This document shows, one piece after another, positions 93 through 31,000 of a DNA stretch of 31,940 nt (positions are counted from its first letter, which is position 1; every line of letters begins with the position of its first letter). The notes beneath the pieces are model-generated. The model saw only the letters and a program-made list of their open reading frames with translations, did not search any database and was not told the origin of the DNA. A program made the translations under genes and the position numbers. The stretch lies in IMG/VR virus record IMGVR_UViG_3300030708_001387, positions 1-31,940 of that record. One strand, 5' to 3'. The stretch is from a virus (Duplodnaviria; Caudoviricetes).

Positions 93-461
93 GTGTCCGC
101 TTTCGAGTATGCATGGTCTGTATTGAAAGCATACGAAGTTGATGGTAAGTTATCCATGACACCAAACCCTGAAGATAACTATAACCTAACATTCCCTACC
201 CGAACAGATGCTGCTTTGGATGAGATTTATTCTACTTCCCCTCGTCATTTTGCCATCCCCGGTCGCCATGACGCAAAGATGGGGCGAACAGCACCGGTTG
301 ATAGAGAAAGAAACTTAGTGCGAATTATGGCTGATTACCTTGGTGTTAGTGAAATGGATGCGCTTGATTTAATGTATCCTCAATTTACAAACCCTGAAAA
401 TAAATCCCTTGAGGGTGATGACCAACATATGTTCCAAAGGCATGAATTAAGTTACATGTGA
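93..461 (+). CDS. Hypothetical protein with N-terminal SAFEYAWSVLK tag (putative virion-internal cargo)
   Basis: 122-aa ORF from GTG. The N-terminal tag is shared with neighbouring ORFs and the gene has its own promoter block. Confidence 0.75.
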   Translation: MSAFEYAWSVLKAYEVDGKLSMTPNPEDNYNLTFPTRTDAALDEIYSTSPRHFAIPGRHDAKMGRTAPVDRERNLVRIMADYLGVSEMDALDLMYPQFTNPENKSLEGDDQHMFQRHELSYM

Positions 462-480
462 CCTCACAACATTCAAGCGT
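458..480 (+). promoter_or_regulatory. GTGACCTC motif plus TTCAAG TATA-like box
   Basis: gtgacctcacaacattcaagcgt is 22/23 identical to 50-72. It starts 43 bp before GTG 501, and its TGA is the stop codon of the upstream ORF. Confidence 0.7.
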
Positions 481-500
481 CGCACCGTTGTCCGATGACT

Positions 501-875
501 GTGTCCGCCTTCGAGTATGCATGGGCCTTACTCAAGTCAGTTGACTTCAGAGACATCGCTCCTATGCCCACTCGATACATTACGCATCCAGATTCTGTTC
601 GATATGGAGAAACAAAACCAAGAAGATTAACCAGTCCTTTCAAAGAAGTGTATGAGCAGCAACCAAAAAGAGAGCAAGCCTACATGGAAGAAACATACAT
701 ACCGGAATTACAAGCAATGCTTGAACGACAGGCCATGATTCAAGCAATGAAAAATCAACAACTTCCTGACGAACAAACGCAAAACTTCGCAACCCGTGAA
801 ATGTTGAGGAATAGAGGTGATGCGAGCGGTGTGATGTATAATTTACCTGAGTATATTCCAGAGAGTTATCGTTAA
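501..875 (+). CDS. Hypothetical protein with N-terminal SAFEYAWALLK tag
   Basis: The ORF track start is 495. GTG 501 is preferred because it reproduces the 43-bp spacing and the actgtgtccgc context seen at 93. Confidence 0.75.
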   Translation: MSAFEYAWALLKSVDFRDIAPMPTRYITHPDSVRYGETKPRRLTSPFKEVYEQQPKREQAYMEETYIPELQAMLERQAMIQAMKNQQLPDEQTQNFATREMLRNRGDASGVMYNLPEYIPESYR

Positions 876-897
876 GTGACCTCGCAATCTTCAACTC
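876..897 (+). promoter_or_regulatory. GTGACCTC motif plus TTCAAC TATA-like box
   Basis: gtgacctcgcaatcttcaactc follows TAA 873-875 directly and begins 44 bp before ATG 920. Confidence 0.65.
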
Positions 898-919
898 CTA
901 CCCCCACCTGCGTAAGCCC

Positions 920-1471
920 ATGAGTGGCGCCTTCGACTTTGCATGGGCCGTCCTCAAAGCACCAGTATACCTCGGTGGACTGGGAGAGACGCCTCCTACA
1001 CAATACGGTCGCCATTACGAAATGCTACCTAACTTGGAGCAGTTTGGTGGCTTCATGTGGCAGTCCGAAGACGGGATGTCTCGTGGAACCATGCGTCCTG
1101 ATTTTTATCACAATTCACTACTAATCAATAATTTTGAGATGGGGGGTCCGATGCGTAATCAGGGGAATGCTCGCGAGTATCTTCAACAAATGATTGACGA
1201 GGGCCATGCGCAGTTTGACCATGAGTTAGACGGCATACACGTTACCAATGTTGAGCCACATACTGCTGGTTTTTGGAACAAATTAGTTGATGAGGGTATG
1301 CTCGATGGTGCCCATGAGCGAAGTAGCATCCGAATAAATCTCGATGGTGATGAGCATTTTACCCATGCCTATGATAGCAAAACCAAACAACCGTGGGGAC
1401 ATGAGTTGAGCGAGGACTATGCTGATTATCACGATTTACCAAGAGAGGGATATTTGGATAACCTTCAATAG
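920..1471 (+). CDS. GNAT-family acetyltransferase-like protein with N-terminal AFDFAWAVLK tag
   Basis: LLINNFEM followed by RNQGNAREYL fits GNAT motif A (R/QxxGxA), and TAGFWNKL fits motif B. Confidence 0.6.
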   Translation: MSGAFDFAWAVLKAPVYLGGLGETPPTQYGRHYEMLPNLEQFGGFMWQSEDGMSRGTMRPDFYHNSLLINNFEMGGPMRNQGNAREYLQQMIDEGHAQFDHELDGIHVTNVEPHTAGFWNKLVDEGMLDGAHERSSIRINLDGDEHFTHAYDSKTKQPWGHELSEDYADYHDLPREGYLDNLQ

Positions 1472-1494
1472 CGTAGCCCCCGTGCGTGAGAACA

Positions 1495-1728
1495 ATGTCT
1501 CCGTTTGATATTGCTTGGATGTTACTCAAAGAAGATGAGAAGTTCAAGCCTGAGCCTTCACGCACAGAGGAAGGACAAAAACAACACCCTTCAACAACTT
1601 ACGGTATGAAAACCCCTTCTATGACAAGAAAACCCACTGCTTCACTACGCACTGGTCGAGTTCCAGCACGGGCTTCTCAAGAAGACATGGAAGAATTTAT
1701 GAGAATTAACAGTCCTAAGGACGAGTGA
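1495..1728 (+). CDS. Small low-complexity protein with N-terminal SPFDIAWMLLK tag
   Basis: ATG 1495 gives MSPFDIAWMLLK, with TATA-like TTCAATA at 1464-1470. Confidence 0.7.
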   Translation: MSPFDIAWMLLKEDEKFKPEPSRTEEGQKQHPSTTYGMKTPSMTRKPTASLRTGRVPARASQEDMEEFMRINSPKDE

Positions 1729-1753
1729 CCTCTGAAGAGGTAAGTGTTAAATC
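1725..1753 (+). promoter_or_regulatory. GTGACCTC motif and TATA-like GTTAAAT
   Basis: GTGACCTC at 1725-1732 overlaps the TGA stop and lies 44 bp before ATG 1769. Confidence 0.55.
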
Positions 1754-1768
1754 TACACCGCCCCTGCG

Positions 1769-1930
1769 ATGCACATGCTTGGAGTATTCCTCATCAGTTT
1801 TGTATTCGTTTTAATGGTCGTTGCGTTCTACCTCATGTTTAGTGAGGGTGTAGAAATCAAGCAACTGTTTGATGAAGAAGGCGAACTTGATGAGATGTTT
1901 ATTGAAGGGCTGCGGAGGTCGCAGCGTTGA
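1769..1930 (+). CDS. Small single-pass membrane protein, 53 aa (absent from the ORF track)
   Basis: Translates to MHMLGVFLISFVFVLMVVAFYLMFSEGVEIKQLFDEEGELDEMFIEGLRRSQR. Its stop overlaps the TTG start of the next gene (TTGA). Alternative start at 1775. Confidence 0.7.
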   Translation: MHMLGVFLISFVFVLMVVAFYLMFSEGVEIKQLFDEEGELDEMFIEGLRRSQR

Positions 1931-2760
1931 CTGTAACTGTCTATGAAGTTGGTCCTCGCGATGGTTTGCAGAGCATCAAGCCCTTCATAGACACGGACAT
2001 CAAGCGTCAACTTATTAGCGCTCTCTACGAGGCTGGCCTCGAAAATATCGAAGAAGTTTCATTCGCACATCCGCGACTTGTGCCTCAAATGTCTGACGCA
2101 GAGGATGTTTTTACAGGAAGAGGCGCAGGTCTTGTAATGAATCAGCGCGGGTTTGAACGTGCCCGAATCATCAATGTCGAAAAAATCAACTTAGTCATAT
2201 CACCTTGTGAGACATTTAGTATGAAAAACTTAGGAAAACCACATAGCGAAGTAGTGCATGAATACTGGTCGTTCATGAATGGATATCCAAAAGATAAGGT
2301 CCGCGTTTACATCTCAATGGCATTTGGCTCTCCACATAGCGGTGAAATCACAAAGCGCCGAATGAAAGCGATGTTAAGAGATGTAGCATTATTTGGAGAC
2401 ACTGTGGTTTTCTCTGACACTATCGGAGTTGGTTGCACAGATAACGTTCACACTTGGGTCCGTATGGCACGTGACGAAAATCTTACTCCTGCACTTCACC
2501 TGCATCACAAAGGTGATGAATTAAAGGCACTTCAACTCATACGTGCTGGGTTAATTGCCGGAGTCACTGAGTTTGATAGTAGCATTGGTGGGCTTGGTGG
2601 ATGTCCTTTTGCTGAAGGCAGTGGTGCGAATCTTTCAACTGAAACATTGGTTCGTCATCTAAACTCATGGGGAATCGACTGCGGTATCCACGAAGAGTCA
2701 CTAAATAAGGCAACAAAAATTGCTTGGAAGATAAAGAACGAAAGCGCAATTGCTATATGA
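1927..2760 (+). CDS. hmgL: Hydroxymethylglutaryl-CoA lyase (DRE-TIM metallolyase), auxiliary metabolic gene
   Basis: Motifs EVGPRDGLQ, metal-binding HLH and GGLGGCPFAEGSGANLSTE with the catalytic Cys. Full TIM-barrel length of 277 aa. Confidence 0.88.
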   Translation: MTVTVYEVGPRDGLQSIKPFIDTDIKRQLISALYEAGLENIEEVSFAHPRLVPQMSDAEDVFTGRGAGLVMNQRGFERARIINVEKINLVISPCETFSMKNLGKPHSEVVHEYWSFMNGYPKDKVRVYISMAFGSPHSGEITKRRMKAMLRDVALFGDTVVFSDTIGVGCTDNVHTWVRMARDENLTPALHLHHKGDELKALQLIRAGLIAGVTEFDSSIGGLGGCPFAEGSGANLSTETLVRHLNSWGIDCGIHEESLNKATKIAWKIKNESAIAI

Positions 2761-2783
2761 TACAGCACTGTGCGATAAAGCAG

Positions 2784-3296
2784 ATGTCCGCGTTCAACTT
2801 TGCATGGTCTATCATCAAAGCAATGCCGGGTGACCCTCGAATTGAGCAAATGAGAAACTATGTTCTCTCGAACAGTAACAGTCCTTCGCCTGAGGTGCGT
2901 GAAAGCGCTGAGAATGTATATAGATATATAACAAGTATAAACTCAGGACAAGACCCCGGCCCAATGCCTAAGATGTTTGATATGCATGAAATCATACGAC
3001 TAAACGCAGAAGGAGGCTTACCACGAGGCGCAATGGCTTCTCAACAAGCGGTTGGCACAAGAGGTATGCCTATGATGCCTCCAAGAACTGACGATTTGAG
3101 TGGATTGCCTATGGCAGCACAAGAAGCACTTAGAGCAGCGCAAGCAAAACGCGCTAGACCTGCACGCATGAGTAGAATGCCTTCGGAAGCAGAAGAAAGA
3201 GCAATGGCTGATGTTGACATGATGCGTGAGGTATCCAAAGGTCTTTCACCAATGCAGAGAGCAATGCGTCACATTATCAACAAACACTTTGCTTAA
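2784..3296 (+). CDS. Met/Arg/Ala-rich protein with N-terminal SAFNFAWSIIK tag
   Basis: ATG 2784 gives the tag. TATA-like CTATATGA at 2753-2760 is at about -31 to -24. Confidence 0.75.
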   Translation: MSAFNFAWSIIKAMPGDPRIEQMRNYVLSNSNSPSPEVRESAENVYRYITSINSGQDPGPMPKMFDMHEIIRLNAEGGLPRGAMASQQAVGTRGMPMMPPRTDDLSGLPMAAQEALRAAQAKRARPARMSRMPSEAEERAMADVDMMREVSKGLSPMQRAMRHIINKHFA

Positions 3297-4575: not shown

Positions 4576-4650
4576 AATATTTAGTAAATAATACAAACAA
4601 TATACTTTACATTCTTTACTATTGCTCTCGCATCATTCGCTACCTTTATC

Positions 4651-5271
4651 ATGACCTCTACGGTGGACACTCCAGTGGTCGCTATGGATGAGTATGAGCA
4701 ACACGACGCAGAAATCCGATTGATGGGACTGATTCTCGCACAGAGTATCTTAGTCGCTATCGCTGTCGGCATCTTTAGTTCGGGCGTTTGGCTACCGGGA
4801 GGAAGCGGAGCATCTGATTGGGTGAATGGATTGACATATGGTATGGGAGCATTGGCTGTTCAAGTCCTTGCTTACTACGTTTTCAAGATGTTCTTTGAGC
4901 AGCAAATGAGAGAGCGAGTGAGAATGACGAACATTGAACGACAACGCACATCGAAGTATCGAAACATGCAACAGTCATTCGACCATCGTCGCGCTGAAAT
5001 GGAGATTCGTCTCCAAGAGGCACAACTTGAGCGAGAACTTCGATGGATGGAAGCCAATCCCGGTAAAATGCCTCCAAGTTGGGGTGTTCAGGGCGGTGGG
5101 CCTTCTATCATTGGTGCTTTCGATGCTAAGCAAAATGAGCGTTTTGACGGAAGTCGCATTCCTACACACGAGGCTGAATCTCAAACACCTGTTAATCTTG
5201 GAATTAAAGACGATGTCCCACTCACAAAGGATGGTAAGCCCGATAAGCGATATACCAAGAAGAGTGAGTGA
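4651..5271 (+). CDS. Membrane protein with two TM helices and a cytoplasmic coiled coil
   Basis: Hydrophobic LMGLILAQSILVAIAVGIF and GLTYGMGALAVQVLAYYVF, followed by a charged helical region. Confidence 0.75.
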   Translation: MTSTVDTPVVAMDEYEQHDAEIRLMGLILAQSILVAIAVGIFSSGVWLPGGSGASDWVNGLTYGMGALAVQVLAYYVFKMFFEQQMRERVRMTNIERQRTSKYRNMQQSFDHRRAEMEIRLQEAQLERELRWMEANPGKMPPSWGVQGGGPSIIGAFDAKQNERFDGSRIPTHEAESQTPVNLGIKDDVPLTKDGKPDKRYTKKSE

Positions 5272-5276
5272 AGTGT

Positions 5277-5531
5277 ATGGGCCGTATCTTCAAAACTCCC
5301 TCTGATAACGCTACAGAGGAAACTCTTCGCGCAATGCACATTGCAAACACAGTTGATACAACTTATGAGCGAACTTGGGGCTGGGTCAAGACAATAATTG
5401 CATCCGCTATTACCGCCTTAGTAGTTAGTGGTTTCGAGTTTTACAACCCTAATTTTAGTTTATTCGACAATACTGTAGATTGGGGTGTTGGTAAATTAAG
5501 AGATTTCATTGACTGGTTGAAATGGTGGTAA
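5277..5531 (+). CDS. Small membrane protein
   Basis: TM segment WVKTIIASAITALVVSGF and amphipathic Trp-rich C-terminus KLRDFIDWLKWW. Confidence 0.7.
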   Translation: MGRIFKTPSDNATEETLRAMHIANTVDTTYERTWGWVKTIIASAITALVVSGFEFYNPNFSLFDNTVDWGVGKLRDFIDWLKWW

Positions 5532-5534
5532 CGT

Positions 5535-6248
5535 ATGCCTGACCCAACAGGAACCGCACTGGTTGGTGCGGCCATGTGGGGTCAAATGTTGTATCATACT
5601 TATCGACCCCGAAGAGTTGGTATTTATGGAGCACCTATGGTTGGGAAAACAACACTTGACCGATACATGACCACACCGGGTGAGATGGAAGAAATAGAAG
5701 AGCGAACGATACACAATCGAATCTTGAAATTAGGTAATTATAGAATGCCTAAGCCTACACGGAAACGACTTTCTTGGAACAATGAACGTCGTCTTGTGTT
5801 TTCATCTGACGTTGGTGGTGACACGAGATTTTGGAATCTTTGGGTAGAAGATATGGTAACACGTGGAGTTGAAGGTGTAGTATATATGTTCGATGACCGT
5901 GCGTTCAAGGGTGAAGACGCTGGAGAGCAAATTGCGGGATTTCGCTTTCTTGTTGACAGAGTTATTGCTCGCGATTATCGCTACCGCTCTCTTTGGTCAC
6001 GATTGAAAGGTCGTCGTTATCATCCTCGTATTATCATGCTTGTTGCAAACAAAGCAGACCGTTTCTTTGACGACACGGCATCTAAGTTGTGGCGGGATGG
6101 TAGAATTGGTGAGCACAAGATATTCGACCCATTTCGTGATGACCTCATTCGCTTGCAAAAAGCAGGTATACCAACTAAGCGTTCTTTCATGGCTACGCGC
6201 ATAGGTTGGAACGTAGAAAAGACAATGTTGGATTTATTGACCCTTTGA
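5535..6248 (+). CDS. Small P-loop GTPase, Arf/Ras-like
   Basis: G1 GAPMVGKT, G2 Thr (ERTI), G3 DVGG, VEGVVYMFD strand, G4 NKAD, G5-like MATRIG, and an N-terminal hydrophobic helix. Confidence 0.85.
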   Translation: MPDPTGTALVGAAMWGQMLYHTYRPRRVGIYGAPMVGKTTLDRYMTTPGEMEEIEERTIHNRILKLGNYRMPKPTRKRLSWNNERRLVFSSDVGGDTRFWNLWVEDMVTRGVEGVVYMFDDRAFKGEDAGEQIAGFRFLVDRVIARDYRYRSLWSRLKGRRYHPRIIMLVANKADRFFDDTASKLWRDGRIGEHKIFDPFRDDLIRLQKAGIPTKRSFMATRIGWNVEKTMLDLLTL

Positions 6249-6283
6249 GTGACCTTTATGTGCGACAGGAGTGTGGGATAGTC

Positions 6284-6454
6284 ATGGTCAGCACGCGTCT
6301 TGTCTCCACAGGCGGAACAAGTCGTAGTTTGCGCACCACCGTTCCTCAATGGGTTGTAGAGCATTTTTCTCTTACTCCCGGTGACGCTGTTAATTGGGCA
6401 CTTAAAGTTGAGAACGGAGAGGTGTCTCTCGTTGTGACTCCCAAAAAGGATTGA
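6284..6454 (+). CDS. AbrB/MazE/SpoVT-family swapped-hairpin DNA-binding protein
   Basis: SLRTTVPQWVVEHFSLTPGDAVNW matches the archaeal AbrB pattern. TTTATG at 6255-6260 sits at about -29 from ATG 6284. Confidence 0.8.
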   Translation: MVSTRLVSTGGTSRSLRTTVPQWVVEHFSLTPGDAVNWALKVENGEVSLVVTPKKD

Positions 6455-7380
6455 TTTACGTGATGATGCGACAGAACGAACAGGTTTCTTTGGCAAGTGT
6501 CAATGAGGCTCATCTTTCTATGCTTGCCGCACAAGGTAATGAACAACTCACTCAAGCCGCTCTTTCAGAAATGGTCAACGCACAGCAAGCCATGCAAGCG
6601 GCGGCTGAAGTGCGAAATATCGAAGTCCCGAAGGTTAACTTCTATCCGAGCACACACCCCGACCCTCGGAAAGCACGCCGGAGGGACATCAAACAGGCTT
6701 ACAAACTTCTTCAACCAGCAAAGAGAAGTCGGTTTTCTCCTCTACGTTGGTTTGGAAACAAGTATCGTTACGACAAAGATACTGGAGTTTGTGTCGTTGA
6801 TGGTTGTGATGTGGCGGAACTTATCAAGCATGATAACCTCTACATGCGTATTTGCGATGAAGACACAGGTCGTAGTTTGTGGGAAATGTATTGGCAGAAT
6901 CCTGTTACTGGTGAGCCTGAAGCGTTCATTGCCCGTGACAAGGTAACAAGTGGTCGTAAAATGCGTGGCACATATTGTCCTGAACATCTTCACCTCTATC
7001 ATTTGTTAAAGAAATGGGAAGCAGAAGAAGAAAAAGAAAAAGAGATGAATCCAAATCGTCTTCGTGACAAAGTAAAGCGGGGTGTCTCGATTGTCTCAGT
7101 CCCTGTGGCTTCTGTAAAAAAGAAAGACCCACAACCTGCAATGCTCCAAAAGTATGAACCGTTCTTTGCTGAACTTGAACGTGACTCAGGGAAAACAAAA
7201 GGCATCAGTATTCTTCACTACAAGAACCCAGTTACTGAGGTAAATGATGTCACAATGATTGTCTTTGATTTGCGTATTTTCCAAGCAGAATTAGAGGCAA
7301 TGAATACTCCAACTCAGGCGTTTCAAGATTTAGTCGCTCAACAGAACATTGATTCGACACAAGGTCTTGGGGGTGAGTAG
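6451..7380 (+). CDS. Hypothetical protein with a putative Zn site (CVVDGC...CPEH)
   Basis: Long ORF coupled to both neighbours. The start could be 6451 (TTG) or ATG 6463/6466. Confidence 0.7.
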   Translation: MIYVMMRQNEQVSLASVNEAHLSMLAAQGNEQLTQAALSEMVNAQQAMQAAAEVRNIEVPKVNFYPSTHPDPRKARRRDIKQAYKLLQPAKRSRFSPLRWFGNKYRYDKDTGVCVVDGCDVAELIKHDNLYMRICDEDTGRSLWEMYWQNPVTGEPEAFIARDKVTSGRKMRGTYCPEHLHLYHLLKKWEAEEEKEKEMNPNRLRDKVKRGVSIVSVPVASVKKKDPQPAMLQKYEPFFAELERDSGKTKGISILHYKNPVTEVNDVTMIVFDLRIFQAELEAMNTPTQAFQDLVAQQNIDSTQGLGGE

Positions 7381-8025
7381 ATGTTCAACTTCGGCACACA
7401 ACCAACACAACCCGGTTCCTTAAATTTATCAGCCACTGGCGCACCAGTCGCTGCCCAGCAGTCATTTGGTTTCGCTCAACAACCTGTTCAACAAATGCAA
7501 CAAAATCCTATGATGCAAGGTATGATGGGTGGCATGGGAGTTACCCCTCAACAACAGCAGTTCATGCAACAACCTGTTACACCTCCAAGTGAAATGGAAA
7601 TACTCAATGCTCTTCTTATCTCACAGAACCCACTTCATCGCTTCATTAAAGACGGTGGTCTTGGGACTTTAGTCGAAATTGTAGCAGCGACTACAACTCT
7701 TTCACTTCTTACAATTCTCAAAGATGCAACTTTTGCAATTGATGAAGATGAAGGTGGTATGAAGTTAGATACAGCCAGCCTACCTGAAAATCTCAAAACG
7801 TTAAGTGCAGAAAATGTGGGTATTCTCATCAATCAAATGGTTGCAAACAGCACACAAACTGTGCAACAGGCTGAGATGCAACGTCAACAAATTATCGCCG
7901 TATCCCAACAATCCATGATGGGTGGTGCTCTTCAAGCAGCGCTCGCGAACGAAGGAATGATGGAGAAGGTTGGAGGTGGCATTGGAAGTGTCGCTCGCTC
8001 CTTCATGGGTCTACCAAAACAGTGA
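7381..8025 (+). CDS. Gln/Met-rich protein with a hydrophobic helix and amphipathic C-terminus
   Basis: Low-complexity N-terminus, LGTLVEIVAATTTLSLLTIL, and C-terminal MMEKVGGGIGSVARSFMG. SD-like GGTGA upstream. Confidence 0.7.
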   Translation: MFNFGTQPTQPGSLNLSATGAPVAAQQSFGFAQQPVQQMQQNPMMQGMMGGMGVTPQQQQFMQQPVTPPSEMEILNALLISQNPLHRFIKDGGLGTLVEIVAATTTLSLLTILKDATFAIDEDEGGMKLDTASLPENLKTLSAENVGILINQMVANSTQTVQQAEMQRQQIIAVSQQSMMGGALQAALANEGMMEKVGGGIGSVARSFMGLPKQ

Positions 8026-8288
8026 TTGACATGATGCCTACACCAAGAGATGCAATTGAAATCCCAATGCGGGGTATAACGACTTCTAGTATTGATGTGT
8101 TTGCCCCAAATCGCTCTGTTATCACAGACATGATTATGGTGCAATTCATCAGTATTATCGTAGTGTTCTTTGCTCTTTTACTATTCAAAGGTCAGACACT
8201 TTCGTCTACAGATGTGAGTTTAGCATTGGTCGGAATTTTTAGCGCATCCATGATGCTTGGCACTATTTACTCACGACTCACTCGCTGA
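8022..8288 (+). CDS. Small two-TM membrane protein (holin-like topology)
   Basis: MIMVQFISIIVVFFALLLF and VSLALVGIFSASMMLGTIY. Confidence 0.7.
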   Translation: MIDMMPTPRDAIEIPMRGITTSSIDVFAPNRSVITDMIMVQFISIIVVFFALLLFKGQTLSSTDVSLALVGIFSASMMLGTIYSRLTR

Positions 8289-8507
8289 CCATTTTCCCAT
8301 TGGGCACTCCATACTCGGAAGTGCTGCTTTTACACGCATTACACAACCGCATGAGCGACACATACCTGCTCTTTTCATGAGTAACGGACAGGTGTCACAA
8401 ATCGAGAGACGCCGAGCATACTCTACTTTTGTAACTCGTTTGTTTTTGATAACATCAGAACTTGCTTGAACAAGTTCACCCGGAATCCGTTTGAGGCGTC
8501 GGGGCAT
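8271..8507 (-). CDS. Small Cys-rich metal-binding protein (DUF6171-like)
   Basis: RRLSICDTC...CRSCGCVMRVKA...CPMGKW pattern. It fills the gap between + strand genes. Confidence 0.7.
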   Translation of the reverse strand: MPRRLKRIPGELVQASSDVIKNKRVTKVEYARRLSICDTCPLLMKRAGMCRSCGCVMRVKAALPSMECPMGKWSASES

Positions 8508-8566
8508 ATTTGGTCGCTGTTGTTCTCTCTGAAAAGGATTATCTCCAATGCCGTTTTAAGGGCACC

Positions 8567-9247
8567 ATGACCGGAGCGGAGCGTGTCTCTAAACGTTCCT
8601 GCCCTTTTTGTCAACATCCGAGTCGTGATGAGTTAGAAGAAGCGCTTTTGTTGGGCGAAATCTCTCCAAAACAACTTGACCAAGATATGGGTTGGCGCTT
8701 CAATACGGCTGACCGTCATTATCGAAATCACATGGGACAATTTCACATGGCCTCTAATCCTCAATGTAAGATTTGTAGCCACCCTCAACGGGCTGAGTTT
8801 GAAGAGAGATTTTTCGCAGATGGTTCTCAATCTGATGCTATTGCTGAAGAAGTCGGCGTTGCTGAATCTTCTGTATATCACCACATGAAACACCACTTTC
8901 AACCGATGGTTCAAAGAGCCGCTGTGTCTGAGGTCGTGATGGTTGTGGGGAAGGAAGTAGATGCACTCAGGTCGAACGTCGAACTTCTCAACCATAAATT
9001 GTCTGAATTGCTCAATGAGGGAAGTGTTCACGAGGATGGATTTGTTCGGGATGCCGTGTCTTTGCACAAAGAGGTCAGAGAATCTCTAAAGGATTTGATG
9101 AAGATGCAAGAAACTTGGGGTCCAACTACTGAAAATGGTGAGATTCACAATACCATCAATATTCTCAAAGTTGAACTTGGAAAAGAAAGTCCTGAATCTT
9201 GGGCACGTATTCGTGAGAAGTTAGTCGGTCATGTGGAGGATTTGTAA
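8567..9247 (+). CDS. Probable terminase small subunit with tandem Zn-binding HTH repeats and a coiled coil
   Basis: CPFCQHP...RHYRNH and CKICSHP...YHHMKHH, then a helical oligomerisation region and HNTINI. It lies upstream of the large terminase. Confidence 0.55.
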   Translation: MTGAERVSKRSCPFCQHPSRDELEEALLLGEISPKQLDQDMGWRFNTADRHYRNHMGQFHMASNPQCKICSHPQRAEFEERFFADGSQSDAIAEEVGVAESSVYHHMKHHFQPMVQRAAVSEVVMVVGKEVDALRSNVELLNHKLSELLNEGSVHEDGFVRDAVSLHKEVRESLKDLMKMQETWGPTTENGEIHNTINILKVELGKESPESWARIREKLVGHVEDL

Positions 9248-9645
9248 TGATACAAGTTCCAGTTTCAGACCTTCTTCAAATGACCCATCCGGGTTTCATG
9301 AACATCAAGAACGATGCAAATCTTTCCCACTTACCTGCTATTCTTGATTACTCCCGTTGCTTGGTTGAAAGATTTGAGCACTATGGTGATGTAAAGGTCA
9401 GTCCTTCAGACATGTTCCCCATACTCGGAAAAATGTTTGAAACGTTGAGCACAGAAGATGAGCCTGAAATTGTTCTACCAATTCGTATGCAACTTCCACG
9501 TGTTCTTGAAGAGTTTGAGGCGATGACTGAAAAAATGTGTGAAGCCTTTCCAATGAATTGGACTATCAAGAAAATCTACCGTGATATTTCTGAGTATTTC
9601 TATGAAATGTTCGACATGCTTACTGGAGGTGAAATAAATGACTGA
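9247..9645 (+). CDS. Hypothetical helical protein
   Basis: 132-aa ORF translationally coupled on both sides. Confidence 0.65.
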   Translation: MIQVPVSDLLQMTHPGFMNIKNDANLSHLPAILDYSRCLVERFEHYGDVKVSPSDMFPILGKMFETLSTEDEPEIVLPIRMQLPRVLEEFEAMTEKMCEAFPMNWTIKKIYRDISEYFYEMFDMLTGGEIND

Positions 9646-11131
9646 AGGTATGATGGGTCGAACTTCTGATACTCGGATGTATAATCCTCACTCTGAATCT
9701 TCTCACATGTATCGTGAGAATCATGAGGAGGAATCTACCCGCACTGGTTACGAAGACCCTCGTGATGCTGACGCTAAGGCTGACCGTCGTCAGAAGAAGA
9801 AGGAAGCCGAGGAAAAGGAAGACCGTAAGATTCGTCATATTAAGATTCGTCGTCATCATATGGGTCTTGGAGAAAAAGAATCACCCGATGAAATGCCTGA
9901 AGAAGAATCTAAGTTCAAGCCACGTGAATCGCCATCCGAACCAACAATCCCTGCGGGTGCTGGTGGATTCCTAACAAGCCTCGCTGCACAAGCAAAAGGT
10001 CCGGGTGCTGCTGCTGGTCAAATGGTTCAGATGAGCGAGCCGATGGAGCACGCTTGGTCTGAGTTGTTGAAGCAGGGAGGACCAGACGTAACTGATGAGT
10101 ATGATTACTATAATTACTATGATACTTATGCAGATGAAGACCGGCCTTTAGTGCATATGCCTCATTCCACTCTTGATGCAAGGTTAGCAGAAAGGGGTGA
10201 GGCTGGTGAATATGCTCATGATAACGATGATGAATTTGATGAGTTAATACATGAGTATCTTATGAGAGACAGGGAAAATCGGAGTGGGCTTGATGGTGGA
10301 GGTTTTTCACAAGAGTTTCAAGATATCCGCACAAGCGAGCCAATGGAGCACGCTTGGTCTACGTTGTTAAAAGAGTCCAAGCGTAAGACCGAGAAGCGAC
10401 GCAAGAAAGAACAACGCGCAAAGTGGCGACCGTCCACTGGTAAGTTCAAGCGACCTCGTGGTGGATACACTGGGCGCTCAGGAACATCTGCTCGTGCTAA
10501 GTTACTTTCTCGACACATCAAAGGTGGGCGTAAGTCAGGACTAATGTTACCTCATCTTGCTGTTGAGATGTCTCACCGTGGTGTCGCATCCAAGCAACCA
10601 ATGTCTAAAGACCCTCAAGCATATGGTCAGTATCGCGCTTACCAAGAGCAGCAAAATATACTTGGAAACGTCCGCCCACAACGCGGTGCGCGTCTTCCTT
10701 CTTCTCAAATCCGTATGCCACGGGTTCCTAAACCTCGCCTCAAGCCTCATCGCATCGCACCAATTCAGCCCCCGGCCATGCGTAGACCTCATCTTGTTCG
10801 TCCAAAAATGCCTAGCATGGTGACCATGAGTGAAGATGAACCTATTAGTTCTGAAATTCTTAAGGCTCCTAATCGTCATCTCCTAATCGAGATGCGAAAT
10901 GAACTCAAGCAACTCAAAGAGATGATGAAACGTCGCGACCGCGATAGCAAGAAGAAAGGCATGGGTGAACCTGACACAGCGGGTGCTGCTTCTACCATGC
11001 CGAAATATCCGGGCAACAATCCAAAGCAAACTACTCGTCCTGAGGGCGCAACAGAAGATGAAACCGATGCACGGACTTTTGGACTCGACCCTATTGGTTA
11101 CTTGGTAGGTCGAGGAGGTAACCGAGCATGA
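9638..11131 (+). CDS. Disordered modular protein with alternating acidic and basic blocks and two internal EPMEHAWSxLLK tags
   Basis: SD GGAGGTGA upstream, duplicated tag, and an EILK|A junction. Confidence 0.75.
   Translation: MTEGMMGRTSDTRMYNPHSESSHMYRENHEEESTRTGYEDPRDADAKADRRQKKKEAEEKEDRKIRHIKIRRHHMGLGEKESPDEMPEEESKFKPRESPSEPTIPAGAGGFLTSLAAQAKGPGAAAGQMVQMSEPMEHAWSELLKQGGPDVTDEYDYYNYYDTYADEDRPLVHMPHSTLDARLAERGEAGEYAHDNDDEFDELIHEYLMRDRENRSGLDGGGFSQEFQDIRTSEPMEHAWSTLLKESKRKTEKRRKKEQRAKWRPSTGKFKRPRGGYTGRSGTSARAKLLSRHIKGGRKSGLMLPHLAVEMSHRGVASKQPMSKDPQAYGQYRAYQEQQNILGNVRPQRGARLPSSQIRMPRVPKPRLKPHRIAPIQPPAMRRPHLVRPKMPSMVTMSEDEPISSEILKAPNRHLLIEMRNELKQLKEMMKRRDRDSKKKGMGEPDTAGAASTMPKYPGNNPKQTTRPEGATEDETDARTFGLDPIGYLVGRGGNRA
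10034..10372 (+). repeat. 39-bp imperfect direct repeat at 10034-10072 and 10334-10372 encoding SEPMEHAWS(E/T)LLK
   Basis: agcgagcc(g/a)atggagcacgcttggtct...ttgtt(g/a)aa, with the copies exactly 300 bp apart. Confidence 0.9.
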
Positions 11132-14718: not shown

Positions 14719-16203
14719 ATGGAAAAGCGCGAAGCCGAGATGAAGGAACTTGTTATCGAGATGGACAAGAAGATGTCCGCTCGCTCGTTCAAGTATTTCT
14801 TTGAAACAGTTCTCGGCTTCGACTATGCTGACCATCATGGTTTGTGGGATAAGGGACTTGCAGACAATCGCTACTATTGTGTAAAAGCGTCTCGTGACCA
14901 TGGTAAATCTGTCTTTTTCATGTCGTATGCTCTGTGGCTCGCTGCTTTCAATCCGGGTAAACACATCATGATTTTCAGTCACTCGTTGGAGCAGACACTG
15001 GAACACATGCGTTTTATTCGTGGTAACATCGACACATCACCCTGCCTTCAAGAATTGAAGCCGGGTGGTATTCCGTGGAGAAAGACCTACTTCGAGTTCA
15101 CCAACGGTAGTCGTATCATGGCTAAGTCGGTTGGTGGAGGAACTCGTGGTTTTCACCCTGATATTGTTCTTTGTGACGATATTCTTTGGGGCACAACTGG
15201 TTCTGAATTGCAACGTGCTGCTGATTGGTTCTATGGTGTATTGCTTCCAGTTCTCCATCATACTGGTCGTTTGATGATGGTTGGAACACCGTTTAGTTAC
15301 AACGACCTCTATGCTCAGTTGGAAAAGACCGAGACATTCACTGTCGAAACTTATCCTGCTATCAACAAAGAGGGTGAGGCGCTATGGCCTGAGCGTTGGA
15401 GTTTAGACGCACTTGACCAACGTCGAATGTCTATGCCAGCAATACAGTTTACTCGTGAGTATCTGTGTGAGCCAATTCACGATGTTGCAAGTATGTTCCC
15501 AATGGAACTGCTTGAGAAAGCACGCGACCATAATCTCAAAATCCTCGACCACGCAGAACGTGATTTCAACGAAGAAGGAGAAGACATCGGTGTATTTGGT
15601 CAACATTTCATTGGCTGGGATACAGCGATTGCATCTGACAAGAACGCTGACTTCACTGCTATGACCGTGATGCGAACAATTCCTGATGAGGACATCAAAC
15701 AAATTGTTGGTATTGTTCATGAGAAGGGTATGTCGTCTATGGCACAGAAACGTCAGATTATCATTCTCAATAACAAGTTCCAGCCCGACCTCATCGAACT
15801 TGAGGGTAACAACTTCCAGCGAATGTTTGCTATGGAGTTACAAGACATTCGGCAAGACATTCCAATTCGCACCTTCATGACTACGCGCACGAAGAAAGAA
15901 AGCCTGTTTATGTCGTTACTTCTTGCATTTGAGCAAGGGCAAATCAAGACACCGTATGGCGATGAACGCTCCAAGCGCTTCACTCACAAGTTGGAAGAAG
16001 AACTCAATCGCTTTGGAATGCAGAAGAGCGGAAGGCTTGAGTCCGTAGGCACGCACGACGACTTGGCTATGTCACTTGCGTTGGCGAACTGGGCAACTAA
16101 AGAGTTCCGTGGAAGTGTTGTTATGCTTGATGATTATATGCCCGGTTTTGATGAATGGATAACGGGTAAACCTCGTAAGAAAGATGGATGGATGATACCA
16201 TGA
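14719..16203 (+). CDS. terL: Terminase large subunit
   Basis: Walker A ASRDHGKS, Walker B IVLCDD, coupling motif GTP, and RNase H-like nuclease IGWDTA, ADFTA, HDDLAMSLALA. Confidence 0.95.
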   Translation: MEKREAEMKELVIEMDKKMSARSFKYFFETVLGFDYADHHGLWDKGLADNRYYCVKASRDHGKSVFFMSYALWLAAFNPGKHIMIFSHSLEQTLEHMRFIRGNIDTSPCLQELKPGGIPWRKTYFEFTNGSRIMAKSVGGGTRGFHPDIVLCDDILWGTTGSELQRAADWFYGVLLPVLHHTGRLMMVGTPFSYNDLYAQLEKTETFTVETYPAINKEGEALWPERWSLDALDQRRMSMPAIQFTREYLCEPIHDVASMFPMELLEKARDHNLKILDHAERDFNEEGEDIGVFGQHFIGWDTAIASDKNADFTAMTVMRTIPDEDIKQIVGIVHEKGMSSMAQKRQIIILNNKFQPDLIELEGNNFQRMFAMELQDIRQDIPIRTFMTTRTKKESLFMSLLLAFEQGQIKTPYGDERSKRFTHKLEEELNRFGMQKSGRLESVGTHDDLAMSLALANWATKEFRGSVVMLDDYMPGFDEWITGKPRKKDGWMIP

Positions 16204-17087
16204 AAGAAGAAAAAGTTGGAAAGAAACCTAAGGGTATGGTCGTTGTTATCTCAGTGGGTAAGCCCGGTGGTAAGAAACCTGAGCGAGAGGCTGACCCTGA
16301 TACGAAGAAGAAAGCCAGTATCGAAGAACTTCAACAAGAAGCCGAGTCCCTTCGTGGTGCTCGTGATTTCCCAACTGCCCGTCGCTTCCAATCAACTGCA
16401 AATATGTTAGGTCAGGAAACACCGGGACGCGAAGTGGCTGCACAGGCTGCACAGGTTCTTTCACCCGGAGATGAGCAGATGCCGGGTGCTCTTTACGAAG
16501 AAGGGCTTCAATCTCCCGACTTTATGGATATGCGACAGAATCCTGAAGCATACGACCCAGTTTACCGTGAAAACTTCATGCGTTTGATGCGACAAATGGA
16601 AAAACATCGCCGTCAAGTTGCACGAGGGCAAGAAAATCTTGCTGAACTTCGTCGCGATGACCCGTCTAAGTTTTTCTCTGACCGAATGACAGGGCGTGTA
16701 AAAACAAGTGAAGATGATGATGCTTTATCTGACATTCTCAAAGGTGACTTGTCTAATGTTGATTTCTGTGACTGTTGTAGCCCCAGTGAACTTGCTTGGG
16801 CTGTTATGAAAGCCAAGAAGAAGTCCAAACCGTTTCATGGATATAATCCAAAGCGCCACCATAGAAAAGGTGGGTTAAGTGCTAAAGGAAGGGCTAAGTT
16901 CAAGCGTGAGACGGGTGCAAATCTCAAACCACCTGTAACTACTAAGCCAAGTAAACTCAAACCCGGCTCTAAGAAAGCCAAACGTCGTAAATCATTTTGC
17001 GCTCGTATGGGTGGTATGAAAGGACCAACGTCAAAGAAAGGTAAATTGACCCCCAAGGGTGCGGCATTGAAAAGGTGGAATTGTTAA
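16200..17087 (+). CDS. Modular head-associated protein with a C-terminal basic domain (DUF6321-like)
   Basis: ATGA overlap with terL. Internal tag ELAWAVMK|A is followed by GGLSAKGRAK...RRKSFCARMGGMKG...LKRWNC. Confidence 0.7.
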   Translation: MKEEKVGKKPKGMVVVISVGKPGGKKPEREADPDTKKKASIEELQQEAESLRGARDFPTARRFQSTANMLGQETPGREVAAQAAQVLSPGDEQMPGALYEEGLQSPDFMDMRQNPEAYDPVYRENFMRLMRQMEKHRRQVARGQENLAELRRDDPSKFFSDRMTGRVKTSEDDDALSDILKGDLSNVDFCDCCSPSELAWAVMKAKKKSKPFHGYNPKRHHRKGGLSAKGRAKFKRETGANLKPPVTTKPSKLKPGSKKAKRRKSFCARMGGMKGPTSKKGKLTPKGAALKRWNC

Positions 17088-17485
17088 TGACTCATCCGGT
17101 TCACGTTTCCAACTTTCTTAAGGGTAAGGAGGATGCTCCTAACTATCGAAAGGCTTCAGAGTCAGAAAAGAAAGCGGGTGAAATGTGCGGAACTTGTAAA
17201 GCGTGGGATGAGTCAGCCACAGAAAATCCCAATACAGGTTATTGTAAGTGGTATGATTTTACCTGTAACCGTGAACACATTTGTGATGCTTGGGTTGGTA
17301 AAGAGATAAAGAAAAGTGATGCAATGAATCCTGCTTGGGACGTTTTAAAAAATACTGCCATTGACCCTGCTGATGAAAGTAGAAGTGGCATGGGGCGTTG
17401 CAAATTTTGTGGGTCTTATGCTGTTAATTTTAACGCGTATGGTATTGGTGAATGTGCTGAGTGTGGAAGACAAAACTACAGGTGA
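17087..17485 (+). CDS. Two Cys-rich modules (HiPIP-like and Zn ribbon) separated by the NPAWDVLK tag
   Basis: NYR...CGTC...C...CDAW, then CKFC...CAEC. TAATG overlap with the upstream gene. Confidence 0.65.
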   Translation: MTHPVHVSNFLKGKEDAPNYRKASESEKKAGEMCGTCKAWDESATENPNTGYCKWYDFTCNREHICDAWVGKEIKKSDAMNPAWDVLKNTAIDPADESRSGMGRCKFCGSYAVNFNAYGIGECAECGRQNYR

Positions 17486-22830: not shown

Positions 22831-25800
22831 GTGCGCGAAGATGCTGTTGACACTTACATTCGCTCAAGAGGCGAGTTGCTAAAGTCAATTCTTGATGGCG
22901 CAGATTATGACCTCAGTGTCGGTAACTACATTGCCGCTCAAATCAATCTTGAGCGTCATGGATATGTGATAGAGAAGACAACAGACGATTTGTTGTGTGA
23001 CTATGTTGTTCGTAAGGAACTGTCTGATGAACAATTAGCGCAAATTGAGGCTCTTCGTGCGGAAGCACAAGGTGCTGACCTTGAAACTAAATTCCAAATC
23101 TCTGACAAAATTAGAGAGATTGAGTTGTCTGCTGAAGGGAAAGAGAAAAAAGAAGAAGAAGGCGATGTGAAAGAAAGAAAGTTTCGCTTCCGTCGTGGCG
23201 CTGAGTTTGTTGTGCCTAATCACACATGGACAAATGGTTATGACGAACATAGTTTAGAAGATTCTCATGCGCTTTGGCCTAACGCTCCTTTCGATGAACT
23301 CCGCTCCCACGGTGGCGATAAACATCCAATGATGGAAACAGTTCACCCACATCTCCAAAAAAATCATGTTACTGGTTATCCAAATTGGATACAAACTCTA
23401 CATGATTTTTACCTTCCTTCTGAGAAAGGGGGTGAATCGTTATCACAACGCTATGCCTATCACGAAAGCGCTGAGGATAAATATCATCGTAAAAAAGACC
23501 ATGGTTTAGTAAATGGTGAAGATAGAGAAGACGTGATGACTGGGAAGATGGTAAAACATCAGCCATATCTTGGTCCTTTGGAACAGAGTGGTGCTCTCTC
23601 ACATCTTCATGACATCTACGAAAGAAATTATCACGATTGGAAAGAAAGCAATCCAAAAATTGTTGATGAGATTACAAAAGAGAATCCCATCACAGAAGAC
23701 CATGAGTTTCTTCTTAGACAAATGCATTTCAAAGAGGCAGCAGAAGGCTGGATGAATGAGGATAAAAATATCAATTTCACAATGGGTGATTATGCAAAGG
23801 GCACTGACATATATGACCTTAGTGAAGAAGAAATGGCGGGTTATAATATTCGTGGAAGCCTTGGGCATAAGGGGTATCTTTTTGGTCTTGAGTTTCTAAA
23901 ACCAAAGCAACGTCACCTTGTTATGAGGCATCTGCATGAAAAAGGAAGTGATGCTCATGACGCTCAGGTCATCGACATTGGTGATGGACAGAAACTTTCA
24001 ATGGGGCGCATTAAAAGAAATATTGCACAAAGGTTTACTCCTGAGTTTTTACACTATCAACGCTCTACTCATATATCCGGCCCAAATATGCATCCCACTC
24101 ACGTGGAATCTGACAAAGACCATCCAAAAGCAGTGGAAATGGCATCAGCACTTCATATGATTCCTGCTCTCTATACTCATGAGATGGAAGATGGACGTGT
24201 CGCTGCTGAGCATCTTCTTGATGGAATTAACAATCATCTTTATGGTGGAGACGAAGAGGATGAAGAGGGCAACAGAATACACCTTAGCGACTTACCTGAC
24301 CTTGGAAAAATAGCCGTTTATAACAAAGAAGCGCAGAAGATGGTTGACGATGGTATTGTCGATACAGTCGGTGATGGTATCCGAAACATCTTGAGAAGAG
24401 AAGATGGTGGTAGTGTATTTTCTAATCATAAGCAATTACTGAATATGGTCGGATATAATGAAAGTTTAGATACAGCACACGAATCCAATGCTCATCCTAT
24501 ATTCCCTGATTTTGACCAACCGTTTCTTTCTAAAGATACGATGGAAGAGGTTATGAAAATAGCCGGTAAAATGGGTGATAAAGCCTTTGTTGCTAAAGAT
24601 ATTCGTAATGGAGATTCTTTTCATTACTTGGGTGTAAATGGCCCAAGGCTTGAAGATATTGACCCTGATTTTAGAGACGCATGGTTAATTGGACCGGATG
24701 GACATCCAGTTGGTTTGTCTGCTCATTTTGCAAGAACGTTTCAAGAGCAAGGAGGAAGGGGGAGAAGTCCACTGTCTTTGCTTCAAATTATGCATCAATC
24801 TCTACCAAAAGATGACGCTGGTTTTTCATTAATTGGAAGAATTGGACCTAATGGTATGTTTGAACCTAATCAAAAGACGCTTGGATTATTTGGTCGTTAT
24901 CTCCCCATACTCAGTGACAAACACAATCATGAGTTATTTGGCTCTCATGGAATACAAAGCCTGTGGGAATCAACTTCACCACAACAACTTAAAGGTGGTA
25001 AAAATCCTCGAACCTTAAAGAATAGAGCAGGTGAAAGTCGCTCAAACTTTTCAAAAAGTTACGCAAATAAAACACACGGTAAAACTCAAAAATCAATAAA
25101 CGCAGAATTTGGTCAGGCGACAACGAAGGCTAAAGATTCAAGATTATGGGGTAAAGGATTTTTCTCCACTGAACCCCTTATGGCGATTGGTGGTATGGGG
25201 CAAAAAGCAACTCAAACCATCAATAATGCTCGAAATGCACATGCTCGTAAAACTGCGTTTGGCCATGTCGCACCTCCTCATAAACCGAATAAAACAGGAG
25301 TGCTTACTCGTCTGCAAATGATGAGATTAGATGAAGAAAAATTATCACATGGAGATGCAGGAAGGTTTGGGGAACACCAGAACTTTTCAGGTAAAAGACA
25401 AGAAGAAATGGATTTATCATCAGAAGAAATAGAAAGCATGGAAGCACAAATGGATGTTTTAATCCGAAATATTGATGAAAGTAAAAACGCTGATGAGAAG
25501 AAAAAGTTTCAAGAAGAACTTCATGAGTTAGAAAGAAATTATGAAAATCTAACAGGTTTACGAGAAAGAGGGCAAAGTATCACGAGTCATTTTAAAGATT
25601 ATGATAATAAGCGAAACGCTGACAAAGATGCGATTTTTAACATGGCTAAGATTTTGAAACCTATAATGGAAGAAGCAGACCCTACTGCTTTTGATACTTC
25701 TAATCCTGAGAAAGCAATGTCCAATATGGCGGCGTTACTTCAAGATGCAAATCGAGCGTTACTCTCACTACCTCATGAAGCACATGGTCTAACGACGTAT

Positions 25801-29793: not shown

Positions 29794-29827
29794 ACAGGAA
29801 TTGAATTAAAAAAGAGAGATGATTAAA

Positions 29828-31000
29828 ATGGCACGAAACTACGTTAGAACAGTTACAGACATGGAGCGCTACTACTATGGCGCTGGAAATGCAATGGGAT
29901 ACACCTACAGTGGTAGTGAACTATTGAAGGCTGACAGCCCAATGCTATCCTCAACTGCTGGAACCTACCAAGCAATCTACGGTCGCAAGGTATGGAGCCA
30001 GTTGAACCAAGAGTTCAACGCTTTCTCAATCCTACCAAAGCGCCCATGGGACCGCAGTGGTTGGAGAGTTATCACAGAGAAGCCAAACGCTGGTGTTGTC
30101 CACGGTGGACTACCTGAGAACGGCGTTCTTCCTGACACTGTAAAGCCTACCTTCCAGCACGTCGCTGCAAAGCCTAAGACCATTGCTCACTCATTCGATG
30201 TGAGCGAAGTCGCTGTGTTCCTTGCAGACAAAGACGATGGATTGGGCGACATGCGTGCAGTCCTAAAGGAAGAAATGGGTAAGCACCATGCTGAGATGGT
30301 CAACAAGATGCTACTAACTGACTCCGATACAGTCGCAGGAAACAACTTCGAGTCCCTTGACCGAATCACTGGAAACGACGGTGGTTCCTCCGGTGGAACT
30401 ACTTCCATGGAAACTGGCTCAGCATCCGCAGACCACTGTGGTGCAAATGACCTCGACATCTACAGCATTGACCGAAGTGCAAACTCATGGTCCAATGCTG
30501 TCGTCAACTGTGGCACTGACCAAGATTCAGCCAACCGCAGAACTTTCTCCCTCGACCAACTGGACGATGTGTTTCAGAGAATGTGGGAACTTGGTGGAAA
30601 CCCTAAGGTTATGCTAACTGGATATGACACTCTAATGCGCCTACAGCAGTTGCTACAGGCACAGCAGAGATTCATGGAAGAGAAGCGCGTTACACCAACC
30701 TACAACGGTGTAAAGGGTGTTCCCGGTATCGAAGCCGGTTTCATCGTCGCTACCTACAACGGTGTTCCAATCATTCCATCCAAGGACGTTGAGAAGGACG
30801 GCATCAGCCGAGTTTACTTCCTCGACACGGACTACCTTTACTTCTCCACGGCAATCCCGACTCAATACTTCGAGTCCGGTATCGAGACAGGCGACCCGTT
30901 CGCTATCAACCGTCTCGGTCAGGAAGGGCTATACCGAACCATGGGTGAGGTATGGACTACCTTCTTCCGCGCACAAGGGAGCATTAGGGACTTGTCCTGA
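29828..31000 (+). CDS. Major capsid protein (HK97 fold)
   Basis: Follows the protease-scaffold, about 390 aa, VATYNGVPIIPS strand, and strong C-ending codon bias typical of high expression. Confidence 0.9.
   Translation: MARNYVRTVTDMERYYYGAGNAMGYTYSGSELLKADSPMLSSTAGTYQAIYGRKVWSQLNQEFNAFSILPKRPWDRSGWRVITEKPNAGVVHGGLPENGVLPDTVKPTFQHVAAKPKTIAHSFDVSEVAVFLADKDDGLGDMRAVLKEEMGKHHAEMVNKMLLTDSDTVAGNNFESLDRITGNDGGSSGGTTSMETGSASADHCGANDLDIYSIDRSANSWSNAVVNCGTDQDSANRRTFSLDQLDDVFQRMWELGGNPKVMLTGYDTLMRLQQLLQAQQRFMEEKRVTPTYNGVKGVPGIEAGFIVATYNGVPIIPSKDVEKDGISRVYFLDTDYLYFSTAIPTQYFESGIETGDPFAINRLGQEGLYRTMGEVWTTFFRAQGSIRDLS

What the first reader, a model, noticed from the sequence alone, without database searches (positions are those of the whole stretch)
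4651..8288. Virus-encoded Arf-like small GTPase in an operon of membrane proteins: candidate membrane-remodelling or egress system
Seen: tightly packed genes for a 2-TM coiled-coil protein, a 1-TM protein with an amphipathic Trp tail, the GTPase, an AbrB regulator, a Zn-site protein, a Gln/Met-rich protein with an amphipathic C-terminus, and a 2-TM protein. None carries the AWxxLK tag. Known: Arf/Sar1 GTPases drive membrane curvature via N-terminal helices, and egress machinery of most archaeal tailed viruses is unidentified. Inference: this is a GTP-timed lysis or budding apparatus, or a membrane-anchored assembly site, placed directly upstream of the packaging genes.
Basis: partly seen in the sequence, partly recalled or inferred. 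Interest (0 to 1): 0.85.

Follow-up and report, generated by a model that had tools for sequence, protein, structure and literature searches.

The report
Arf-like GTPase cassette of magroviruses
Abundant ocean viruses thought to infect Marine Group II archaea carry a conserved five-gene set built around their own very divergent Arf-like GTP switch; the same set occurs in a likely tailless relative, so it likely acts on the host membrane, possibly to release new virus, rather than in building the head.

Summary
The window is a magrovirus-type tailed virus. Genes 4684-8288 form a tight same-strand block whose central 237-aa protein has G1-G5 GTPase motifs and a predicted small-GTPase fold. Its best sequence matches are Asgard ArfR1 and Arl8; SRbeta, Arf6, Arl2, Rag and Sar1 lead the structural list. 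It fails two of three Arf signature tests, so it is Arf-like, not a member.

The conserved core is five genes: 2-TM protein, 1-TM protein, GTPase, Zn-finger protein, Gln/Met-rich protein. AbrB and the last 2-TM gene are accessory. All 8 near-complete genomes chosen by capsid gene carry the GTPase.

New here: the core also sits in 'group D'-type elements with no match to this virus's capsid or terminase and with a likely jelly-roll protein and HerA-type ATPase. In a third clade it lies between head and tail genes, so closeness to packaging genes is not conserved. This argues for a late, host-membrane-directed role (lysis or egress most likely, 0.45). Membrane binding, GTPase activity and partner binding are untested. 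The scan noted this cassette before on at least eight other genomes; no paper I searched describes it.

The parts
4640..4683 (+). TATA-like element (CCTTTAT) and leader of gene A, with a TGACC-N20-GGTC inverted repeat
   Evidence: alignment; loose TTA[TA] box in 62 of 63 unique upstream regions (no shuffle control); inverted repeat in only 9 of 63 against 0.3% in shuffles. Promoter role inferred.
4684..5271 (+). Gene A (core): 195-aa protein, two TM segments, Gln/Arg-rich helical middle, low-complexity tail ending in a KKDGxPDxRY motif
   Evidence: found in 78 of 80 close loci, the two misses being truncated; profile match to clade 2 (90%) and clade 4 (96%), none to the clade 3 positional analogue
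5277..5531 (+). Gene B (core): 84-aa protein, one TM segment, Trp-rich C-terminal helix
   Evidence: 80 of 80 close loci; profile match to clade 2 (78%) and clade 4 (66%, one sequence), none to clade 3
5535..6248 (+). Gene C (core): 237-aa Arf-like small GTPase with N-terminal hydrophobic helix, a switch-I insertion (about 59-74) and a basic/aromatic insertion (about 146-163)
6249..6283 (+). Second TATA-like element (GACCTTTAT) before gene D, present only in the subclade with a long C-D gap
   Evidence: role inferred
6284..6454 (+). Gene D (accessory): 56-aa AbrB/MazE-like regulator
   Evidence: Pfam PF04014 E 0.0035, below cut-off; 83 of 84 clade 1 sequences; 0 of 13, 0 of 80 and 0 of 4 loci in clades 2-4
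6451..7380 (+). Gene E (core): about 305-aa soluble protein with a split Cys/His zinc site; start may be ATG 6463
   Evidence: 80 of 80; homologous across clades; no family or structure hit
7381..8025 (+). Gene F (core): 214-aa Gln/Met/Gly-rich protein with a conserved core and invariant Asn145
   Evidence: 80 of 80; no family or structure hit
8022..8288 (+). Gene G (accessory): 88-aa protein with two TM segments
   Evidence: 80 of 80 in clade 1; 12 of 13 in clade 2; 0 of 80 and 0 of 4 in clades 3 and 4

Best explanation
The block is a conserved five-gene viral module (A, B, GTPase, E, F) that likely acts late in infection as a GTP-switched machine on the host membrane and would most likely trigger release of progeny. 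Shown: the genes, their order, their conservation, the GTPase motifs and the TM segments. Predicted: the small-GTPase fold with an N-terminal helix. Inferred steps: (1) A and B sit in the host membrane as anchors or activators. (2) GTP binding lets the GTPase dock through its N-terminal hydrophobic helix and its basic/aromatic insertion. (3) E and F are its soluble regulator and effector or scaffold; because the catalytic Gln after DxxG is not conserved, hydrolysis would depend on a partner, which gives a timer. (4) The assembled complex deforms or breaks the membrane. D (AbrB-like) would only tune expression, and G is an add-on of clades 1-2.
Confidence: 0.45

Rival explanations
1. The module builds or anchors an intracellular membrane site (a virus factory or assembly platform) and does not break the cell.
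For: Same anatomy and conservation. It lies among structural genes and, in clade 4, directly after the thermosome gene. A tailless, membrane-containing virus would need membrane recruitment. A's basic C-terminal motif could bind DNA (inference).
Against: Tailed heads need no internal membrane (established knowledge). The motif in A is missing from several homologues.
Confidence: 0.2
2. The module is a host-takeover switch that reroutes host vesicle formation, division or surface proteins (for example to exclude other viruses), like a viral counterpart of ArvABC.
For: Sharing between unrelated virion types fits any host-directed job. ArvA has an N-terminal helix and a Zn-ribbon partner (PMC10927574). 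The block has its own TATA-like element and a small regulator.
Against: It sits with late structural genes in all four clades. No ArvB (DUF2073) or ArvC (DUF2072) match among the neighbours.
Confidence: 0.2
3. The GTPase is an accessory factor of DNA packaging or head assembly.
For: In clades 1 and 2 a terminase-small-like gene follows the block (80 of 80; 12 of 13).
Against: That gene is not beside the block in clades 3 and 4 (0 of 80, 0 of 4). The core occurs in elements with no terminase or HK97 capsid match.
Confidence: 0.07
4. The block is a soluble signalling or counter-defence unit whose membrane genes are incidental neighbours.
For: C, E and F are the most clearly homologous genes across clades, while A and B of clade 3 are not detectably related. 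Atlas neighbours include bacterial GTPases of unknown role.
Against: A 2-TM and a 1-TM gene precede the GTPase in every clade. Near-universal presence is unlike patchy counter-defence genes (established knowledge).
Confidence: 0.08

Closest known systems
Arf-family GTPases: Asgard GerdArfR1 (PDB 8OUN/8OUM), Arl8, Arf6, Arl2, Sar1
   Same: G-domain with G1-G5 motifs, helical N-terminal extension, DxGG and an invariant Trp eleven residues after the G3 Asp; best sequence matches and top structural rows.
   Different: 237 aa with two insertions; G2-to-G3 distance 32-35 residues (24 in clade 3); no Trp before the Asp; Arg of RxxW replaced by Trp in the window; catalytic Gln variable; no Gly2; virus-encoded with fixed partners.
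ArvA (OapA) and the arvABC operon of Haloferax (PMC10927574)
   Same: Archaeal small GTPase with a predicted N-terminal helix, in an operon with a Zn-binding partner, tied to membrane shaping.
   Different: No DUF2073 or DUF2072 neighbour; two or three membrane-protein genes instead; viral, not cellular. No direct sequence comparison with ArvA was run.
SRP receptor beta and Rag GTPases
   Different: No TM anchor on the viral GTPase; no SRX or roadblock partner seen.
Holin and virus-associated pyramid lysis systems (PMC10791045)
   Same: Small virus-encoded membrane proteins expressed with late genes.
   Different: No family match for A, B or G; the passages I read name no GTPase in these systems.
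Magrovirus group D (PMC5434244)
   Same: Clade 4 carrier G001 has PolB, thermosome, resolvase and RNA polymerase A.
   Different: The paper found no morphogenetic block; here a HerA-type ATPase, a likely jelly-roll protein and the GTPase cassette are present.

Membership tests
Ras-superfamily (TRAFAC) small GTPase | G1 GxxxxGK[ST], G3 DxxG, G4 NKxD motifs | tested here: met
   G32, G37, K38, D92, G95, N172, K173, D175 invariant in 53 sequences
Ras-superfamily (TRAFAC) small GTPase | G-domain fold | tested here: met
Ras-superfamily (TRAFAC) small GTPase | Binds and hydrolyses GTP | not testable with these tools
   Needs biochemistry; Gln after DxxG in 96 of 145 unique sequences, Asp in the window
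Arf family | Helical N-terminal extension that is amphipathic (PMC2063696; bioRxiv 2024.02.28.582541) | tested here: inconclusive
   Helix 4-23 predicted at pLDDT 48-74; moment 0.19 in the window, medians 0.28, 0.36, 0.42, 0.44 in clades 1-4 with 39%, 8%, 6%, 6% of shuffles as high
Arf family | Signature wDvGGqXXXRxxW | tested here: not met
   Window SDVGGDTRFWNLW: D, GG and the last W are in register, but the first w, the q and the R are not; clade 2 mostly keeps RxxW (definition)
Arf family | Short interswitch | tested here: not met
   Thr-to-Asp distance 32-35 in clades 1, 2, 4 and 24 in clade 3, against 19 in Arf1 (recalled). The modelled beta hairpin 75-93 is itself short; the excess is a loop at 59-74
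Arf family | Nucleotide-driven interswitch toggle and membrane recruitment | not testable with these tools
   Needs GDP and GTP structures and liposome assays
Arf family | Phylogenetic placement inside the Arf clade | not tested
   The tree holds only viral and metagenomic relatives, no reference GTPases
ArvA family (arvABC) | arvB (DUF2073) and arvC (DUF2072) downstream | tested here: not met
   No such Pfam match in D, E, F or G at E<=1; definition
ArvA family (arvABC) | Sequence similarity to HVO_3014 | not tested
   No ArvA sequence was at hand; no NCBIfam match for the window protein
ArfGAP (for gene E) | Cx2Cx16-17Cx2Cx4R zinc finger with arginine finger (recalled) | tested here: not met
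   E has C114 and C176-x2-H179 about 60 residues apart and His, not Arg, five residues after H179
Holin-endolysin cassette | Holin family match and adjacent wall-degrading enzyme | tested here: inconclusive
   No Pfam, PHROG or NCBIfam holin or enzyme match; holins diverge too far for absence to count
Magrovirales (tailed viruses assigned to Marine Group II) | HK97-type head module with terminase, inserted ligase and nuclease | tested here: met
   Terminase E 5e-63; capsid gene 83%, 64% and 39-48% identical in clade 1-3 genomes; ligase and LAGLIDADG genes read by eye, not scanned
Magrovirus group A (Apasviridae) | Thermosome-type chaperonin; about 108 kb genome | tested here: inconclusive
   Full-length 33-35% match to a thermosome in 3 of 3 clade 1-2 genomes and 0 of 2 clade 3 genomes; the window itself is a 32-kb fragment; no tree against the type genome
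Tailless jelly-roll virus (clade 4 carriers) | Jelly-roll major capsid protein and FtsK/HerA-type packaging ATPase, no HK97 module | tested here: inconclusive

The most novel reading that the evidence does not exclude
A GTP-timed lysis or egress machine of a new kind: an Arf-like switch with its own membrane anchors, zinc-finger regulator and scaffold, shared across two virus realms (tailed Duplodnaviria and a tailless jelly-roll lineage) that infect the same ocean archaea. It would be the missing release system of tailed archaeal viruses of this group and a prokaryotic-virus parallel of Sar1/Arf coat systems.
Probability: 0.35. Interest if true: 0.92.

Novelty: new variant of a known kind. 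Interest (0 to 1): 0.74.

Why it matters
Magroviruses are reported as the third most abundant virus group in the sampled surface ocean (PMC5434244), and the lysis genes of tailed archaeal viruses are unknown (PMC10791045). A near-universal five-gene module gives a short, testable candidate list: it can be expressed in Haloferax and reconstituted on liposomes without culturing the host. An Arf-like GTPase with fixed partners outside Asgard archaea and eukaryotes also bears on how small-GTPase membrane shaping arose. Its presence in group D elements links two unrelated virion types through one host-directed module.

Tried and rejected
Family searches. The window GTPase has no Pfam, PHROG or NCBIfam match, and single-sequence or narrow-profile PDB searches gave only E>=0.3; a signal appeared only with the 53-sequence profile (the RecA rows there are repeated Walker A matches in fusion constructs). 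B was scanned without its first three residues. E and F have no PDB profile match, and E has no usable Atlas hit. E, F, A, B and G were not folded.

Expression and binding. No RNA holder was listed, which is no evidence on expression; no reads were laid. Complex prediction of the GTPase with E was not available, so binding is open. The sigma-70 scan gave 9 sites against 6.5 expected and is not suited to archaea.

Cellular relatives. The species-genome scan used two patterns and gave 3 hits at 68-81% identity on 8-16 kb contigs of three MAGs. I read these as misbinned viral contigs. The 1.84-billion search gave 83 hits, with no named cellular family. Neither excludes distant cellular relatives, and the host genomes could not be searched. 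P0129 had no viral locus. P0158, P0161, P0202 and P0203 lack context and sit on long branches.

Operator idea. The inverted repeat upstream of A is in only 9 of 63 regions, and TGACC recurs in several intergenic gaps of the window, so a general AbrB operator is not supported.

Other. The two named magrovirus type genomes are not in the annotated collections. The 136-138 kb group-D-type metagenome contigs could not be searched whole. PHROG 'portal' rows in G001/G002 fall on NUDIX domains, and the 'terminase' row matches only the C-terminal part of phrog_2666 on the HerA-type ATPase; I discounted both. Only 84 of 133 called ORFs of G001/G002 were scanned.
Full report
Setting. The window is a 31,940-base virus record with a large terminase at 14719-16203 (PHROG E 5e-63) and a capsid gene at 29819-31000 whose relatives lie in 97-106 kb genomes. 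This layout fits the magroviruses described in PMC5434244 (Results parts 1-2 of 3 read). A thermosome-like gene occurs in 3 of 3 tested genomes of the two nearest clades and 0 of 2 of the third, so the window is likely group A; this is inferred. The host assignment to Marine Group II archaea rests on the literature and was not tested.

Observation. The seven ORFs are real and tightly packed. Gene A most likely starts at 4684: the ATG at 4651 lies in a conserved TATA-like element and many homologues have an in-frame stop between the two. Gene B starts at 5277. Hydropathy gives two TM segments in A, one in B and two in G. F has one hydrophobic stretch that is mostly absent in distant clades (1 of 57 in clade 3), so it is probably a buried helix. 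F's C-terminus is amphipathic beyond chance (0.3% of shuffles) but B's tail is not (17%). The AWxxLK-type motif marks 8 of 34 listed genes and none of the cassette. Since 26 of 34 genes lack it, including capsid and portal, its absence says little.

Conservation in close relatives. Among 80 kept of 143 loci, B, C, E, F and G were found in 80, A in 78 (two truncated) and D in 74 by tblastn, always in the same order; an ORF-level search finds D in 83 of 84 sequences. To avoid choosing by the GTPase, I picked long contigs by capsid gene (8 of 80 and 10 of 80 loci). The GTPase was found in 6 of 7 searched and 10 of 10, and in 8 of 8 genomes at least 90% complete. Nine of these 17 were already known from the GTPase scans; 7 of the 8 new ones had it, and the miss is 74% complete.

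Distant clades define the core. A search of 1.84 billion proteins gave 83 hits, which fall into separate clades. Clade 2 (13 loci) has A-B-C-E-F-G and no D. Clade 3 (80 loci) has two small membrane genes, C, E and F, placed after the capsid gene and before genes that look like head-tail connectors (my reading), with no D, G or terminase-small-like neighbour. Clade 4 (4 loci, 2 distinct sequences) has A-B-C-E-F. Profile comparisons link E and F across clades (E clade 1-4 100%, E clade 3-4 94%, F clade 1-2 99.5%, F clade 3-4 97%, but F clade 1-4 only 29% and 1-3 45%). They link A and B of clades 1, 2 and 4, but not of clade 3 (under 1%). The highest of 20 cross-gene controls was 15%. E keeps a split Cys/His zinc site in all clades, with one clade 4 sequence lacking the His. 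F keeps Asn145 in all 18 aligned rows.

Mechanism. A module that is kept by tailed viruses in different genomic positions, and by a likely tailless virus, probably acts on something they share: the host cell. Two membrane-protein genes always precede an Arf-like switch, and the block sits with structural genes. I therefore infer a late, membrane-directed job, with release of progeny most likely (0.45). A and B would anchor or activate the GTPase. The GTPase would dock by its N-helix and basic insertion. E and F would regulate it and act as effector or scaffold. The variable catalytic Gln suggests a partner completes the active site, as for Rap or Sar1 (recalled); F's invariant Asn is a candidate, which is speculation. 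E is not an ArfGAP by motif. Rivals are a membrane assembly site (0.2), host takeover (0.2), soluble signalling (0.08) and packaging (0.07). No step of this mechanism was shown.

Literature. Searches for magrovirus with GTPase gave 0 papers; seven other searches listed none that describes the cassette by title or abstract start. 'GTP' or 'GTPase' does not occur in the main text of PMC11706807, PMC10160649, PMC5434244 or PMC5332604 (term searches and passages). The two ICTV profiles, read whole, do not mention it. GTPase terms were absent from three supplements of PMC10160649. For PMC11706807 only 8,917 characters of supplement were held, so its annotation tables were not seen and could list the gene. 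Zhou et al. 2023 was not read. JGI's automatic label 'GTPase SAR1 family protein' is on some relatives. PMC10927574, PMC10791045 and bioRxiv 2024.02.28.582541 were seen as passages. The scan itself noted this cassette on at least eight other genomes; that listing gave me the ArvA lead.

Verdict. A real, deeply conserved, apparently undescribed viral module around a divergent Arf-like GTPase. The function is inferred only. Interest 0.74; new variant of a known kind, with a 0.35 chance of being a new class of lysis machine.

Noticed in passing
window 93-3296, 9638-11131, 16188-17485: Eight genes share an 'AW..LK' motif (often after F-x-x), twice in one gene; it could be a head-targeting or protease-cleavage tag.
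   Followed up: partly
window 1927-2760: HMG-CoA lyase-like gene (Pfam HMGL-like E 5e-14), present near the cassette in 24 of 80 loci; this function is already listed for Aoguangviridae.
   Followed up: partly
window intergenic gaps before 93, 495, 920, 1769, 4684, 6284: A TGACCT motif recurs 32-43 nt before the start codons; possible virus-specific promoter element.
   Followed up: no
window 8271-8507 (- strand): Small Cys-rich DUF6171 gene (E 1.6e-10) overlapping the end of gene G, found in 51 of 80 loci.
   Followed up: partly
window 8510-9247: Conserved protein with two Cys/His repeats, a weak helix-turn-helix signal and a coiled C-terminus; follows the cassette in clades 1-2; terminase-small-like by my reading.
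   Followed up: partly
L084:5078-5296: In clade 2, which lacks the AbrB gene, a small ORF that looks like a ribbon-helix-helix regulator (by eye, not scanned) lies directly upstream of gene A.
   Followed up: no
G001 (L181-L186) and G002 (L187-L189): Group-D-type elements with their own RNA polymerase subunit, a HerA-type ATPase, a likely jelly-roll protein and several giant multi-enzyme proteins (NUDIX, glutaredoxin, SET, HD domains).
   Followed up: partly
L081, L082, L083: Three species-representative MAGs (Parvibaculum, Maricaulis, a Promethearchaeati archaeon) hold the viral cassette on short contigs, probably misbinned; the last could be mistaken for an Asgard Arf gene.
   Followed up: partly
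window 22831-28356: 1841-aa protein between portal and prohead protease genes with a ligase-like C-terminal part (read by eye).
   Followed up: no
P0158, P0161, P0202, P0203: Very distant GTPase relatives on 2-11 kb metagenome contigs with unknown context; P0203 has an Arf-like PTLG at switch I.
   Followed up: no
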